Positions 1,346 to 61,745 of a stretch of 64,000 nucleotides of DNA are shown here, piece by piece. Positions within the stretch are counted from its first letter, which is position 1. Every line of letters begins with the position of its first letter. Made by a program: the position numbers and the translations under genes. Source of the DNA: Escherichia coli (lineage in GTDB: Bacteria > Pseudomonadota > Gammaproteobacteria > Enterobacterales > Enterobacteriaceae); assembly GCF_013315695.1 (NCBI RefSeq), contig NZ_CP054353.1; one strand, 5' to 3'. Under the pieces are notes generated by a model. It saw nothing but the letters and a program-made list of their open reading frames with translations. It made no database searches and was not told the origin of the DNA.

Positions 1346-4249
<2,904 letters not shown>

Positions 4250-4343: not shown

Positions 4344-4463
4344 TGCCTGGCGGCCTTAGCGCGGTGGTCCCACCTGACCCCATGCCGAACTCAGAAGTGA
4401 AACGCCGTAGCGCCGATGGTAGTGTGGGGTCTCCCCATGCGAGAGTAGGGAACTGCCAGGCAT
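4344..4463 (+). rRNA. rrfH: 5S ribosomal RNA
   Basis: TGCCTGGCGGCC...GGGAACTGCCAGGCAT, 120 nt. Confidence 0.96.
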
Positions 4464-4515: not shown

Positions 4516-4592
4516 GGAGCGGTAGTTCAGTCGGTTAGAATACCTGCCTGTCACGCAGGGGGGCGCGGGTTCGAGTCCCGTCCGTTCCGCCA
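4516..4592 (+). tRNA. aspU: tRNA-Asp (anticodon GTC), distal tRNA of the rRNA operon
   Basis: GGAGCGGTAGTTCAGTCGGTTAGAATACCTGCCTGTCACGCAGGGGGGCGCGGGTTCGAGTCCCGTCCGTTCCGCCA; differs by one base (G at 4562) from the second tRNA-Asp copy at 13517..13593. Confidence 0.93.
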
Positions 4593-4632: not shown

Positions 4633-5272
4633 CGTCTATATTTCTATTATTGCTTAAATCGCAAAAATCCTCTGCGTTTTACGCCCTTTTTCCGCAACAT
4701 TCTAAAGCCCATAATCACTTCAGTTAACGAAAATAGCATTAAAAGAGGCATATTATGGCTATCCCTGCATTTGGTTTAGGTACTTTCCGTCTGAAAGACG
4801 ACGTTGTTATTTCATCTGTGAAAACGGCGCTAGAACTTGGTTATCGCGCAATTGATACCGCACAAATCTATGATAACGAAGCCGCAGTAGGTCAGGCGAT
4901 TGCAGAAAGTGGCGTGCCGCGTCATGAACTCTACATCACCACTAAAATCTGGATTGAAAATCTCAACAAAGCTAAATTGATCCCGAGTCTGAAAGAGAGC
5001 CTGCAAAAATTGCGTACCGATTATGTTGATCTGACGCTAATCCACTGGCCGTCACCAAACGATGAAGTCTCTGTTGAAGAGTTTATGCAGGCGCTGCTGG
5101 AAGCCAAAAAACATGGGCTGACGCGTGAGATCGGTATTTCCAACTTCACGATCCCATTGATGGAAAAAGCGATTGCTGCTGTTGGCGCTGAAAACATCGC
5201 TACTAACCAGATTGAACTCTCTCCTTATCTGCAAAACCGTAAAGTGGTCGCTTGGGCTAAACAGCACGGCAT

Positions 5273-5281
5273 CCATATTAC
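5273..5281. repeat. IS1 target-site duplication, left copy (CCATATTAC)
   Basis: Identical 9-mer at 6050..6058 directly flanking the other IS1 end. Confidence 0.9.
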
Positions 5282-5336
5282 GGTGATGCTGCCAACTTAC
5301 TGATTTAGTGTATGATGGTGTTTTTGAGGTGCTCCA

Positions 5337-5612
5337 GTGGCTTCTGTTTCTATCAGCTGTCCCTCCTGTTCAGCTACTGACGGGGTGGTGCGTAACGGCA
5401 AAAGCACCGCCGGACATCAGCGCTATCTCTGCTCTCACTGCCGTAAAACATGGCAACTGCAGTTCACTTACACCGCTTCTCAACCCGGTACGCACCAGAA
5501 AATCATTGATATGGCCATGAATGGCGTTGGATGCCGGGCAACAGCCCGCATTATGGGCGTTGGCCTCAACACGATTTTACGTCACTTAAAAAACTCAGGC
5601 CGCAGTCGGTAA
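5337..5612 (+). CDS. insA: IS1 InsA (transposition inhibitor / DNA-binding protein)
   Basis: 91 aa [37 protein letters not shown]... zinc-finger-like N-terminus. Confidence 0.9.
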
Positions 5613-6034
5613 CCTCGCGCATACAGCCGGGCAGTGACGTCATCGTCTGCGCGGAAATGGACGAACAGTGGGGCTATGTCGGGGCTAAATCGCGCCAGCG
5701 CTGGCTGTTTTACGCGTATGACAGGCTCCGGAAGACGGTTGTTGCGCACGTATTCGGTGAACGCACTATGGCGACGCTGGGGCGTCTTATGAGCCTGCTG
5801 TCACCCTTTGACGTGGTGATATGGATGACGGATGGCTGGCCGCTGTATGAATCCCGCCTGAAGGGAAAGCTGCACGTAATCAGCAAGCGATATACGCAGC
5901 GAATTGAGCGGCATAACCTGAATCTGAGGCAGCACCTGGCACGGCTGGGACGGAAGTCGCTGTCGTTCTCAAAATCGGTGGAGCTGCATGACAAAGTCAT
6001 CGGGCATTATCTGAACATAAAACACTATCAATAA
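5531..6034 (+). CDS. insB: IS1 InsB frame (transposase made as InsAB' fusion by -1 frameshift)
   Basis: ORF in -1 frame relative to insA; slippery AAAAAAC at 5589..5595 in the insA/insB overlap. Confidence 0.85.
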
Positions 6035-6049
6035 GTTGGAGTCATTACC

Positions 6050-6058
6050 CCATATTAC
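6050..6058. repeat. IS1 target-site duplication, right copy (CCATATTAC)
   Basis: Identical to 5273..5281. Confidence 0.9.
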
Positions 6059-6331
6059 TTCCTATATGACGCTGGCGTATGGTAAGGCCCTGAAAGATGA
6101 GGTTATTGCTCGTATCGCAGCTAAACACAATGCGACTCCGGCACAAGTGATTCTGGCGTGGGCTATGGGGGAAGGTTACTCAGTAATTCCTTCTTCTACT
6201 AAACGTAAAAACCTGGAAAGTAATCTTAAGGCACAAAATTTACAGCTTGATGCCGAAGATAAAAAAGCGATCGCCGCACTGGATTGCAACGACCGCCTGG
6301 TTAGCCCGGAAGGTCTGGCTCCTGAATGGGA

Positions 6332-7246
6332 TTAAGCCTCTCTGACAGCTCCTCCGGGAGCTGTTTTTACATGCTCGCTAAGGAAATCGATAAAAGCCCG
6401 GATGCGTGTACTTACCGCACGGTCGCTGTAATATACGGCACTGAATGGCATTTCCACTGGCAATACTTTATCTGCCATTAACTCCACCAATTCTCCGCGA
6501 GCGATTTCTCTGTCGATCATGTAGTCGGACAAACACGCAATCCCGTTGCCACTCAGGCAAAGCTGTTTCAGTGTTTCCCCACTATTGGATGACAAACCGT
6601 ACTTCACCTCATGTAATTGTCCATCGCTACAGGCTATCGGCCAGGTATTGAGGGAAGCGGGTTCAGTGAATCCCAGGCAAACATGTTGCTTTAAATCGTC
6701 GATCGTTTCTGGCTTCCCGTAGCGGGAAATATAATCGGGGGAGGCGATAATTTTTCGATAACTGTTAAATAACGGCCTGGCACGTAAGCTGGAATCCGTT
6801 AACGTACCGGCGCGTATCGCGACATCCACTTTTCTTTCGATCAAATTAATAATTGTTTCGGAGGAGACTAGTGATAAAGTGACTTCCGGATAGCGTTCAC
6901 GGAAAGGCTTAATCAACGGCATCAGAAAGTGCAGCACCACTGGAGTTGCGGCATCGATGCGCAACAGTCCACGCGGTGTATTACGCGTCTCCATAATTTC
7001 TGATTCTGCCGCTGCCATCTCCTGCAAAATTGACTGTACGCGACGAAAATAACGCTCGCCTTCTTCCGTCAGGCTAAGTTGCCGCGTGGTCCGATTAAGC
7101 AGGCTAACGCCAAGTTTCATCTCCAGCTTTTTCACCGCCCGGCTTACCGCTGAGTTTGCTTGCCCTAATTGTTCCGCTGCCCGGCTAAAGCTGCCGCTTT
7201 CGACGACCGAAACAAAAATGGCGAGTTCTTCCGACGTGGCTTTCAT
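6332..7246 (-). CDS. yafC: LysR-family transcriptional regulator
   Basis: 304 aa; N-terminal HTH ([23 protein letters not shown]) and LysR substrate-binding domain. Confidence 0.9.
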
Positions 7247-13516: not shown

Positions 13517-13593
13517 GGAGCGGTAGTTCAGTCGGTTAGAATACCTGCCTGTCACGCAGGGGGTCGCGGGTTCGAGTCCCGTCCGTTCCGCCA
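13517..13593 (+). tRNA. aspV: tRNA-Asp (anticodon GTC)
   Basis: GGAGCGGTAGTTCAGTCGGTTAGAATACCTGCCTGTCACGCAGGGGGTCGCGGGTTCGAGTCCCGTCCGTTCCGCCA. Confidence 0.96.
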
Positions 13594-20894: not shown

Positions 20895-21725
<831 letters not shown>

Positions 21726-21820: not shown

Positions 21821-22318
21821 ATGTCTGAATATCGTCGTTATTACATCAAGGGGGGAACATGGTTTTTCACGATAAATTTGCGGAATCGTCGAAGCCAACT
21901 TTTGACCACCCAGTACCAGACGCTCCGTAACGCCATTGTTAAAGTTAAGCGAGCCAGACCTTTTGAAATTAACGCCTGGGTAGTCTTGCCAGAGCATATG
22001 CACTGTATCTGGACATTACCTGAAAGCGATGATGATTTTTCCTCTCGCTGGCGTGAGATTAAAAAACAGTTCACTCAAACTTGCGAAATGAAAAATATCT
22101 GGCAACCGCGTTTTTGGGAGCACGCCATCCGCAATACCAAAGATTATCGCCATCATGTTGATTATATTTATATAAATCCAGTAAAACATGGCTGGGTAAA
22201 GCAAGTGAGTGATTGGCCATTCTCAACGTTCCATCGCGATGTCGCGAAAGGGTTATATCCCATCGATTGGGCGGGGGACGTAACGGATTTAAATGCTGGC
22301 GAGCGTATTATTTTATAA
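21821..22318 (+). CDS. rayT: REP-associated tyrosine transposase RayT
   Basis: 165 aa; HuH motif (PEHMHCIW) and catalytic Tyr region; flanked on both sides by REP elements. Confidence 0.92.
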   Translation: MSEYRRYYIKGGTWFFTINLRNRRSQLLTTQYQTLRNAIVKVKRARPFEINAWVVLPEHMHCIWTLPESDDDFSSRWREIKKQFTQTCEMKNIWQPRFWEHAIRNTKDYRHHVDYIYINPVKHGWVKQVSDWPFSTFHRDVAKGLYPIDWAGDVTDLNAGERIIL

Positions 22319-28841: not shown

Positions 28842-28926
28842 TGTAGGCCTGATAAGAGGCGCAGCGTCGCATCAGGCATCGGTGCACAATTGCCGGATGG
28901 CGGCGTAAACGCCTTATCCGGCCTAC
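28842..28926. repeat. REP/BIME element in lfiM-lafK divergent intergenic region
   Basis: TGTAGGCCTGATAAGAGGCGCAGCGTCGCATCAGGCA ... TTGCCGGATGGCGGCGTAAACGCCTTATCCGGCCTAC. Confidence 0.8.
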
Positions 28927-60689: not shown

Positions 60690-61745
60690 ATGCGTAAAAT
60701 CATTCATGTGGATATGGACTGCTTTTTCGCAGCGGTGGAGATGCGCGACAATCCCGCTCTGCGCGATATCCCTATTGCTATTGGCGGCAGCCGCGAACGT
60801 CGGGGGGTGATCAGCACCGCCAATTATCCCGCGCGTAAATTTGGCGTACGCAGCGCTATGCCGACAGGGATGGCGCTCAAATTATGCCCACATCTCACCT
60901 TGCTTCCGGGGCGCTTTGACGCCTACAAAGAAGCCTCAAATCATATCCGAGAAATTTTCTCGCGCTATACCTCGCGCATTGAACCGTTATCACTGGATGA
61001 AGCCTATCTCGACGTCACCGATAGTGTGCATTGCCACGGTTCTGCGACCCTCATCGCCAAGGAAATCCGTCAGACGATCTTTAACGAGCTGCAACTGACG
61101 GCATCTGCGGGCGTTGCGCCGGTAAAGTTTCTCGCCAAAATTGCTTCCGACATGAATAAACCCAACGGTCAGTTTGTGATTACGCCGGCAGAAGTTCCGG
61201 CATTTCTGCAAACCTTACCGCTGGCAAAAATTCCCGGCGTCGGCAAAGTCTCGGCGGCAAAACTGGAAGCGATGGGGCTACGGACCTGCGGCGATGTACA
61301 AAAGTGTGATCTGGTGACTCTGCTCAAACGTTTTGGCAAATTTGGACGCATTTTGTGGGAGCGTAGTCAGGGCATTGACGAGCGCGACGTTAACAGCGAG
61401 CGGTTGCGAAAATCCGTCGGCGTGGAACGCACGATGGCGGAAGATATTCATCACTGGTCTGAATGTGAAGCGATTATCGAGCGGCTGTATCCTGAACTTG
61501 AACGCCGTCTGGCAAAGGTAAAACCTGATTTACTGATTGCTCGCCAGGGGGTGAAATTAAAGTTTGATGATTTTCAGCAAACCACTCAGGAGCACGTCTG
61601 GCCGCGGCTGAATAAAGCTGACTTAATCGCCACCGCGCGTAAAACCTGGAATGAACGCCGTGGCGGGCGCGGTGTGCGTCTGGTGGGGCTGCATGTGACG
61701 TTGCTTGACCCTCAAATGGAAAGACAACTGGTGCTGGGATTATGA
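60690..61745 (+). CDS. dinB: DNA polymerase IV (Y-family translesion polymerase)
   Basis: 351 aa [33 protein letters not shown]... Confidence 0.95.

What the first reader, a model, noticed from the sequence alone, without database searches (positions are those of the whole stretch)
4516..4592. Single-base difference between the two tRNA-Asp copies
The rRNA-operon copy has G at 4562 (variable-loop region) where the second copy (13517..13593) has T; the sequences are otherwise identical. It could be a real allelic variant or a sequencing/assembly error in a repeated gene.
Basis: seen in the sequence. Interest (0 to 1): 0.3.

Follow-up and report, generated by a model that had tools for sequence, protein, structure and literature searches.

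The report
Recurrent U47G variant of tRNA-Asp
The two aspartate tRNA genes in this E. coli window do differ by one base, and the same T-to-G change turns up independently in about 2% of complete E. coli genomes and in distant bacteria, so it is most likely a real and harmless product of a mutation hotspot rather than a sequencing error.

Summary
aspU (4516-4592, end of the rrnH operon) and aspV (13517-13593) differ at a single base, but it is window 4563 (G) versus 13564 (T), not 4562. [quoted passage not shown]

The window is E. coli. Its two closest complete genomes (99.97% identical) carry T at aspU, so the G is a private, recent change.

The change is not unique:
- The exact G allele occurs at 111 places in 110 of 5,426 complete E. 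coli genomes: 35 at aspU, 60 at aspV and 7 at aspT.
- It sits on at least 9 different flanking haplotypes.
- It is inherited within one ST95-like clade sequenced by four laboratories, and it occurs in a K-12 laboratory derivative.
- It appears as a minority copy in Actinobacillus and Flammeovirga, and in one examined copy each of Proteus, Trabulsiella and a Flavobacteriaceae MAG.

Controls were negative or low. A or C at the same site gave 0 hits. The equivalent U47G change in tRNA-Ile and tRNA-Ala gave 0 hits. G-run length variants gave 1 and 6 genomes.

Best reading: a genuine allele made by a site-specific T>G hotspot, where five Gs are followed by a T and the polymerase slips and realigns. 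It is probably near-neutral, because position 47 is unpaired and is not an aspartate identity element. A sequencing error in this particular assembly is not excluded without reads.

The parts
4516..4592 (+). aspU, the tRNA-Asp(GUC) gene at the end of the rrnH operon, carrying the G47 allele
   Evidence: ARAGORN; Rfam tRNA 67.7 bits; annotated as tRNA-Asp after 5S rRNA in the near-identical genomes AF3 and MSB1_4I
4563..4563 (+). The variant base: G here, T in aspV and in aspU of the nearest relatives. Gene position 48, canonical tRNA position 47.
4558..4563 (+). Run of six Gs in aspU (tRNA positions 42-47). The ancestral state is five Gs followed by T.
   Evidence: sequence read; the only internal repeat that can template the change is the run itself shifted by one base
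13517..13593 (+). aspV, the stand-alone tRNA-Asp(GUC) gene downstream of dnaQ, with the ancestral T at 13564
13559..13564 (+). The ancestral GGGGGT context in aspV
   Evidence: sequence read
4346..4461 (+). 5S rRNA (rrfH) immediately upstream of aspU; context only
   Evidence: Rfam 5S_rRNA 93.2 bits
4605..4632 (+). Hairpin (cctcgag...ctcgagg) followed by a T run, just after aspU. It looks like the operon terminator. Context only.
   Evidence: read directly; no terminator scan was run

Best explanation
The G at 4563 is most likely a genuine U47G allele of aspU, one of the three E. coli tRNA-Asp genes. It arose recently in this strain's lineage. It comes from a site-specific T-to-G mutational hotspot that is built into the tRNA-Asp gene sequence 5'-GGGGG-T-C-3'.

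The inferred mechanism is polymerase misalignment. While the five-G run is being copied, the growing strand slips back by one base and an extra G is added. The strands then realign, so that this G sits where the T should be. The product is six Gs with the gene length unchanged.

Position 47 is an unpaired variable-loop nucleotide. It is not among the listed aspartate identity determinants. Two wild-type copies also remain in the genome. The allele is therefore expected to be tolerated, being neutral or slightly deleterious. That fits its pattern: many shallow lineages, always a minority copy, never fixed.

Shown here: the difference itself, its recurrence, its base specificity, its independent origins and its inheritance. 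Inferred: the slippage mechanism and the near-neutrality.
For: Population frequency:
- The exact G-centred 40-mer hits 111 places in 110 of 5,426 complete E. coli genomes, all chromosomal and all annotated tRNA-Asp.
- Locus-specific queries give 35 genomes at aspU, 60 at aspV and 7 at aspT.

Base specificity:
- The same 40-mer with A or C at the site gives no match.

Matched controls:
- U47G in tRNA-Ile(GAU) and tRNA-Ala(UGC) gives no match. Both have the same loop position and are taken, from general knowledge of E. coli K-12, to have three copies per genome. Both have only a two-G context before the T.

Independent origins:
- Thirteen aspU-G sequences fall on at least 9 downstream haplotypes, differing by up to 27 of 690 nt.
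- Identical haplotypes carrying T also exist: MG1655 versus RM11911/A41/PI6, and AF3 versus the window.
- K-12 derivatives from Basel carry G at aspV, whereas MG1655 has T.

Heritability:
- S88, MS7163, APEC O18 and ExPEC XM come from France (my knowledge; no country in the record), Slovakia, the USA and China. They share aspV-G plus a linked SNP on a 6-kb flank that is otherwise almost identical to UTI89, which has T.

Other species:
- Actinobacillus porcinus has G in 1 of 2 tandem copies.
- Flammeovirga sp. has G in 1 of 3 tandem copies.
- Trabulsiella, Proteus penneri and a Flavobacteriaceae MAG each carry the G allele in the one copy examined.

Mechanism:
- No direct or inverted repeat of 5 nt or more inside the gene can template the change, except the G run shifted by one.
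- DinB-family polymerases slip on runs and then realign to give substitutions (PMC3643592).
- T-to-G dominated the Pol IV substitution spectrum on lacZ-alpha, 19 of 66 (quoted in PMC3643571).
- Dislocation at homopolymers has been described elsewhere (PMC3105016).

Tolerance:
- The canonical cloverleaf energy is identical for both alleles, -26.3 kcal/mol.
- The Rfam tRNA score is equal for both.
- The aspartate identity set is G73, G34, U35, C36, C38, G10 and G2-C71, and does not include position 47 (PMC9976931).
- A damaged single copy, aspT[t8c], has no major growth effect because two identical genes remain (PMC5389703).

Assembly quality:
- The window has 4 private substitutions and 0 private indels over 64 kb against two relatives.
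Against: - Both nearest genomes have T at aspU, so this particular G rests on one assembly and no reads are available.
- The slippage mechanism is inferred from sequence context only. The run-length dependence rests on two control tRNAs that also differ in other ways; for example, tRNA-Ile carries acp3U47.
- No wild-type positive-control search was run for the tRNA-Ile and tRNA-Ala 40-mers.
- Slippage should also give run-length changes, and these are rare: +1 G in 1 genome and -1 G in 6 genomes. Selection against them in a tRNA could explain the shortage.
- G47 stabilises non-canonical folds by about 2.3 kcal/mol in the nearest-neighbour model, so the allele may not be strictly neutral.
- About 9 of the 111 places were not assigned to a locus.
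- The number of independent origins across all 110 genomes was not counted on a tree.
Confidence: 0.68

Rival explanations
1. The G at 4563 is a base-calling, polishing or assembly error in this one assembly, produced at a T that follows a G homopolymer in a repeated gene.
For: Both closest genomes (99.97% identical) have T at aspU. The change extends a homopolymer, a context in which sequencers are known to err (general knowledge). No reads can be inspected.
Against: - A context-driven error should hit every copy with the same surrounding sequence. Here it hits 1 of the 2 copies in the window, and 1 of 3 in 109 of 110 carrier genomes.
- The same allele is inherited in a clade sequenced by four laboratories.
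- Run-length errors, the typical homopolymer artefact, are 16 to 100 times rarer at this site than T>G: 1 and 6 genomes against 111 places.
- The window has no private indels and only 4 private substitutions in 64 kb.
Confidence: 0.13
2. The recurrence is driven mainly by positive selection for G47 in one tRNA-Asp copy. One possibility is a mildly impaired tRNA-Asp that raises (p)ppGpp and stress tolerance. Another is escape from a factor that recognises U47.
For: - A single-copy tRNA-Asp mutation, aspT[t8c], has selectable phenotypes that require RelA and raises persistence (PMC5389703).
- The allele appears in K-12 strains named 'Sel(...)' that may come from a selection experiment.
- G47 is predicted to favour misfolded alternatives.
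- The allele recurs in several phyla.
Against: - Selection to lose or alter U47 should also recover A or C, and none is seen.
- The allele stays at about 2% of genomes in shallow clades and never spreads to all copies.
- No factor that reads position 47 of tRNA-Asp is known to me, and the identity review lists none (PMC9976931).
- No paper describing the 'Sel' strains was found.
Confidence: 0.12
3. The G was imported rather than mutated in place. The source could be gene conversion from another G-bearing tRNA-Asp copy, recombination with another strain, or replacement of the tRNA 3' half by an integrating element.
For: - Genes in and near rrn operons undergo conversion. The 23S differences at 2515-2563 between the window and AF3 look like this.
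- aspV is followed by different DNA in different strains.
- Strain E7 carries G at two loci.
Against: - The sequence downstream of aspU is identical to AF3, which has T.
- There is no extra copy of the tRNA 3' end in the window.
- Neither close relative appears in any of the G-carrier lists.
- No viral contig carries the G 32-mer, against 44 with T.
- A K-12 laboratory derivative acquired G.
- G sits on many haplotypes that also exist with T.
Confidence: 0.04

Closest known systems
E. coli K-12 tRNA-Asp(GUC) genes aspT, aspU and aspV
   Same: Same gene, same locus order (rrnH 5S - aspU - dkgB ... dnaQ - aspV), and 76 of 77 bases identical. aspV in the window is identical to K-12.
   Different: aspU here has G instead of T at position 47. 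The three K-12 genes are identical to one another (PMC5389703).
Slip-and-realign ('dislocation') substitution hotspots next to homopolymer runs, as described for DinB/Pol kappa-type polymerases and for HIV-1 subtype C K65R
   Same: The mutated base becomes the same as the adjacent run, the length is conserved, and the change is strongly base-specific and recurrent (PMC3643592, PMC3105016).
   Different: Here the evidence is population-genomic only. No polymerase or rate has been measured, and the site lies in a highly conserved tRNA gene, where selection filters what can be seen.
aspT[t8c], a single-copy tRNA-Asp mutation that suppresses rep uvrD lethality (PMC5389703)
   Same: [quoted passage not shown] The mutation is tolerated without a major growth defect.
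   Different: t8c hits a conserved structural nucleotide (s4U8) and was selected in the laboratory. U47G hits an unpaired loop nucleotide and recurs in natural isolates.

Membership tests
Bacterial tRNA-Asp(GUC) gene | Cloverleaf with anticodon GTC | tested here: met
   ARAGORN calls both copies tRNA-Asp (gtc). Rfam tRNA scores 67.7 bits for both.
Bacterial tRNA-Asp(GUC) gene | Aspartate identity determinants G73, G34, U35, C36, C38, G10 and G2-C71 (PMC9976931) | tested here: met
   Read from the sequence. Gene positions 74 G, 35-37 GTC, 39 C, 10 G and 2 G/72 C are present in both copies. The variant position is not a determinant.
Bacterial tRNA-Asp(GUC) gene | The G47 transcript is processed, modified, aminoacylated and used in translation | not testable with these tools
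   Only indirect evidence: equal canonical fold energy and persistence of the allele in a clade.
Misalignment (dislocation) mutational hotspot | The new base equals the adjacent homopolymer base and the length is unchanged | tested here: met
   GGGGGT becomes GGGGGG. The run shifted by one is the only internal template.
Misalignment (dislocation) mutational hotspot | Only that one substitution recurs at the site | tested here: met
   G at 111 places; A at 0; C at 0.
Misalignment (dislocation) mutational hotspot | Independent recurrence across backgrounds, loci and species | tested here: met
   Three loci. At least 9 haplotypes among 13 aspU-G sequences. A K-12 derivative. Five other species.
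Misalignment (dislocation) mutational hotspot | Dependence on run length | tested here: inconclusive
   U47G after a two-G context in tRNA-Ile and tRNA-Ala gives 0 hits. These are only two controls, in different tRNAs, and no wild-type positive-control search was run.
Misalignment (dislocation) mutational hotspot | Elevated measured mutation rate at the site, and dependence on a particular polymerase or repair background | not testable with these tools
   Needs fluctuation, mutation-accumulation or duplex-sequencing experiments.
Sequencing or assembly artefact | Reads do not support the consensus base | not testable with these tools
   No reads are available.
Sequencing or assembly artefact | Not heritable, and scattered without regard to relatedness | tested here: not met
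   Four assemblies from four laboratories share aspV-G together with a linked SNP.
tRNA 3'-half replacement by an integrative element | Foreign DNA downstream plus a direct repeat of the tRNA 3' end | tested here: not met
   The downstream sequence is identical to T-bearing AF3. There is no third copy of the 3' end in the window. No viral contig carries the G allele.

The most novel reading that the evidence does not exclude
Position 47 of the widely conserved bacterial tRNA-Asp gene is an exceptionally strong, phylum-spanning T>G hotspot. It continually seeds a second tRNA-Asp isodecoder (G47) into populations. That isodecoder is not neutral: it changes folding, modification next to m7G46, or charging enough to be favoured under some stresses. 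It would then act as a recurrent 'contingency' allele rather than as mutational noise.
Probability: 0.12. Interest if true: 0.55.

Novelty: new member of a known kind. Interest (0 to 1): 0.33.

Why it matters
For this genome it matters little. One of three tRNA-Asp genes carries a probably harmless loop variant, and annotation should keep it as a functional tRNA-Asp.

The wider pattern is more useful. The same T>G change recurs in about 2% of complete E. coli genomes, at all three loci, and in distant bacteria, while the other two possible bases and the matched sites in two other tRNAs are never seen. This has four consequences:
- The site is homoplastic and should not be trusted as a phylogenetic marker or automatically flagged as an error.
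- It may be a natural, countable example of slip-and-realign mutagenesis next to a short G run in vivo.
- It offers a simple assay site for testing which polymerase or repair pathway produces such changes.
- It is a naturally occurring tRNA-Asp isodecoder whose function could be tested.

Tried and rejected
- **Templated (quasi-palindrome or direct-repeat) mutation.** No direct or inverted repeat of 5 nt or more covering the site exists in the gene, apart from the G run itself. Rejected.
- **Mobile-element or phage donor of the G allele.** 0 viral contigs carry the G 32-mer against 44 with T. There is no att-like repeat in the window. Rejected.
- **mutT-like mutator signature in the source strain.** Of 4 window-private SNPs, 2 are A:T>C:G (4563 and 7468), 1 is A:T>G:C and 1 is G:C>A:T. 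Too few to conclude anything; not pursued.
- **Thermodynamic folding as a test of function.** Both alleles give non-canonical minimum-energy folds, and the canonical energy is equal. Only weakly informative.
- **Is U47 of tRNA-Asp an acp3U site?** The acp3U47 paper lists tRNA-Phe plus seven others in an m7G-acp3U-C context and never mentions tRNA-Asp in its main text. A second paper gave nothing. Left open.
- **Literature on the K-12 'Sel(hit)' strains, or on any aspU/aspV/aspT position-47 polymorphism.** Nothing found.
- **Wagner & Nohmi 2000.** The paper is not held, so my recollection of its sequence-context result is not used as evidence.
- **Metagenome scan.** Not run. It would not have changed the conclusion, and no denominator could have been obtained.

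Full report
**What is in the window.** ARAGORN finds four tRNA genes: Ile and Ala in the rRNA spacer, and two tRNA-Asp(GTC) genes at 4516-4592 and 13517-13593. Rfam places the first tRNA-Asp gene directly after 16S (partial), 23S and 5S rRNA. Near-identical annotated genomes show the order rrnH - tRNA-Asp - dkgB (interrupted by IS1) - yafC ... dnaQ - tRNA-Asp - yafV, followed by a lateral-flagella (Flag-2) cluster. These two genes are therefore aspU and aspV of E. coli (K-12 names).

**The observation.** The two 77-nt genes differ at exactly one base: gene position 48, which is window 4563 (G) versus 13564 (T). The flanks are unrelated. The D loop has one extra nucleotide, so this is canonical position 47 of the five-nucleotide variable loop (G44 G45 G46 U/G47 C48). 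The change turns GGGGGT into GGGGGG.

**Whose genome, and what the relatives have.** The window is E. coli. Over window 4600-28000 it is 100.0% identical to isolate AF3 (UK) and strain MSB1_4I (Australia). Over 33 kb it is 99.97% identical to each. Both relatives have T at aspU and at aspV. Across the full 64 kb the window has only four private substitutions relative to these two genomes: 4563 T>G, 7468 A>C, 45047 A>G and 60097 C>T. It has no private indel. That is fewer private differences than either relative. The G is therefore a recent, private change in an assembly that otherwise looks clean.

**The same change elsewhere in E. coli.** I used a 40-mer centred on the variant, so that every 28-base seed must contain it.
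- It matches 111 places in 110 of 5,426 complete genomes. All are chromosomal and annotated as tRNA-Asp, with at most two places per genome.
- Locus-specific queries assign 35 genomes to aspU, 60 to aspV and 7 to aspT. About 9 places remain unassigned, probably because of flank variants.
- Carriers include strains labelled O157:H7, O111:H8, O39:NM, O78:H4, S88 and APEC O18, as well as ETEC strains and K-12 derivatives.

**Controls.**
- The same 40-mer with A or with C at the site gives no match.
- The equivalent U47G change in tRNA-Ile(GAU) and tRNA-Ala(UGC) also gives no match. Both have A44 G45 G46 U47 C48, are taken from general knowledge of E. coli K-12 to have three copies per genome, and lie in rrn operons.
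- Run-length variants of the tRNA-Asp G run are rare: one extra G in 1 genome and one fewer G in 6 genomes.
- The excess is therefore specific to T>G at this site in this gene.
- Caveat: I did not run wild-type positive controls for the tRNA-Ile and tRNA-Ala 40-mers. The low-complexity filter is not the reason for the zeros, because the most G-rich query of all did return hits.

**Independent origins and inheritance.**
- I compared the 690 nt downstream of aspU in 13 G-bearing sequences. They fall into at least 9 haplotypes, differing by up to 27 positions.
- Haplotypes identical to G carriers also exist with T. MG1655 matches RM11911, A41 and PI6. AF3 matches the window.
- Two K-12 derivatives from Basel carry G at aspV at the K-12 coordinate, whereas MG1655 has T.
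- S88, MS7163, APEC O18 and ExPEC XM come from four submitters and three hosts (human, chicken, duck); three records name Slovakia, the USA and China, and S88 is a French isolate from my own knowledge. They all carry aspV-G together with one linked SNP. Their 6-kb flank differs from UTI89 at only a few sites, and UTI89 has T at both aspU and aspV.
- The allele therefore arises repeatedly and, once present, is stably inherited.

**Other species.** An exact 32-mer with G occurs in the representative genomes of five species.
- Trabulsiella odontotermitis: the gene is otherwise identical to E. coli.
- Proteus penneri.
- Actinobacillus porcinus: one of two tandem copies.
- Flammeovirga sp.: one of three tandem copies.
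- A Flavobacteriaceae MAG.

In both tandem arrays the sister copies have T. The same change therefore recurs wherever this very conserved gene sequence exists.

**Real or artefact?** An error caused by local sequence context should affect every copy that shares the context. Instead one copy is affected in the window and in 109 of 110 carrier genomes. The allele is heritable. Homopolymer length errors, the usual artefact at such a site, are far rarer than T>G. These points make the allele real as a class. For this particular assembly, reads are needed. I put the chance of an error at roughly one in eight.

**Mechanism (inferred).**
- No direct or inverted repeat of 5 nt or more inside the gene could template the change, other than the G run shifted by one position. 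This argues against quasi-palindrome correction and for slippage within the run.
- In the classical dislocation model, the nascent G strand slips back on the C template, one more G is added, and realignment puts that G opposite the A. The result is a T>G substitution with no change in length.
- A run of five stabilises the slipped intermediate. The two-G contexts in tRNA-Ile and tRNA-Ala would not, which is consistent with their zero counts.
- DinB-family polymerases are documented to slip on runs and then realign into substitutions (PMC3643592).
- T>G was the commonest Pol IV substitution on lacZ-alpha, as quoted in PMC3643571.
- Template-dependent dislocation at homopolymers is described in PMC3105016, and boundary-shifting substitutions between repeats in PMC3755907.
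- Which polymerase acts here is unknown.
- A donor-based origin is unlikely. No viral contig carries the G 32-mer (0 against 44 with T). There is no att-like repeat in the window. The downstream DNA is unchanged.

**Consequence for the tRNA (inferred).**
- Position 47 is unpaired in the cloverleaf, so the canonical structure has the same energy in both alleles (-26.3 kcal/mol). The covariance-model score is also the same.
- The published aspartate identity set is G73, G34, U35, C36, C38, G10 and G2-C71 (PMC9976931). It is intact in both copies and does not include position 47.
- One altered copy among three identical genes is tolerated even when the change is structurally serious, as with aspT[t8c] (PMC5389703).
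- In the nearest-neighbour model, the extra G stabilises register-shifted alternatives by about 2.3 kcal/mol.
- That, together with the allele never spreading to all copies and occurring only in shallow clades, fits a neutral to slightly deleterious variant maintained by recurrent mutation.
- Selection for G47 remains a minority possibility. It is weakened by the complete absence of A and C at the site.

**Verdict.** The finding is correct, with a one-base coordinate correction, and on its face ordinary. The variant is most likely real. The noteworthy by-product is that it marks a strongly base-specific, recurrent T>G site in tRNA-Asp genes. I could not find this described in the searchable literature. 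It fits a known class of mutational mechanism.

Noticed in passing
window 4755-6335: dkgB is split by an IS1 element. By offset from the AF3 annotation, the pieces are: dkgB N-terminal part about 4755-5282, IS1 transposase about 5337-6034, and the dkgB remainder about 6051-6335. The insertion is shared with AF3 and MSB1_4I but absent from most other genomes. It explains why aspU and aspV are 9,001 nt apart here and 8,003 nt apart in K-12.
   Followed up: partly
window 2515-2563 (23S rRNA): A cluster of five differences from AF3 within 50 nt of the 23S gene, where MSB1_4I agrees with the window. It looks like an exchange between rrn operon variants (gene conversion) rather than point mutation.
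   Followed up: no
window about 22434-60619: A complete lateral-flagella (Flag-2) gene cluster runs from flhA/flhB/fliR through lafA and motA to lafU. It is present in only some E. coli lineages.
   Followed up: no
window about 60690-61745: dinB (DNA polymerase IV) followed by yafN-yafO-yafP lies in the same window. It is a coincidence that the candidate slip-and-realign polymerase is encoded 56 kb from the variant. No link is implied.
   Followed up: no
window 21644-21721, 28846-28923, 48073-48150, 48191-48267: Four matches to Rfam naRNA4 (REP-derived nucleoid-associated RNA elements). A rayT REP-associated transposase gene is annotated nearby in AF3, at about window 21821-22318.
   Followed up: no
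L012, L015, L016, L019, L023 versus L013, L014, L017, L018, L020-L022 (5S to aspU spacer): The spacer between 5S rRNA and aspU comes in two lengths among E. coli genomes: about 54 nt, as in the window, and about 193 nt. The extra segment was not examined.
   Followed up: no
L007 502-802; L008 38-114: tRNA-Asp genes of Bacteroidota (Flammeovirga sp. and a Flavobacteriaceae MAG) differ from the E. coli gene at only 3-6 of 77 positions. That is unusually strong conservation across phyla.
   Followed up: no
L005 (strain E7, NZ_CP104523.1) and hit H254: One poultry isolate carries the G allele at both aspV and aspT. It is the only genome of the 110 with two G copies. This could be two independent hits or a gene conversion between copies.
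   Followed up: partly
L004 (NZ_CP152468.1, strain 'Sel(hit)') and NZ_CP152465.1 ('Sel(0 hit star)'): K-12-sized laboratory strains from Basel carry aspV-G at the exact MG1655 coordinate. The experiment they come from could not be identified in the literature searches.
   Followed up: partly
window 7468: The second window-private substitution (C here, A in both relatives) is also an A:T>C:G transversion, like 4563. With only four private SNPs this does not amount to a mutator signature.
   Followed up: partly
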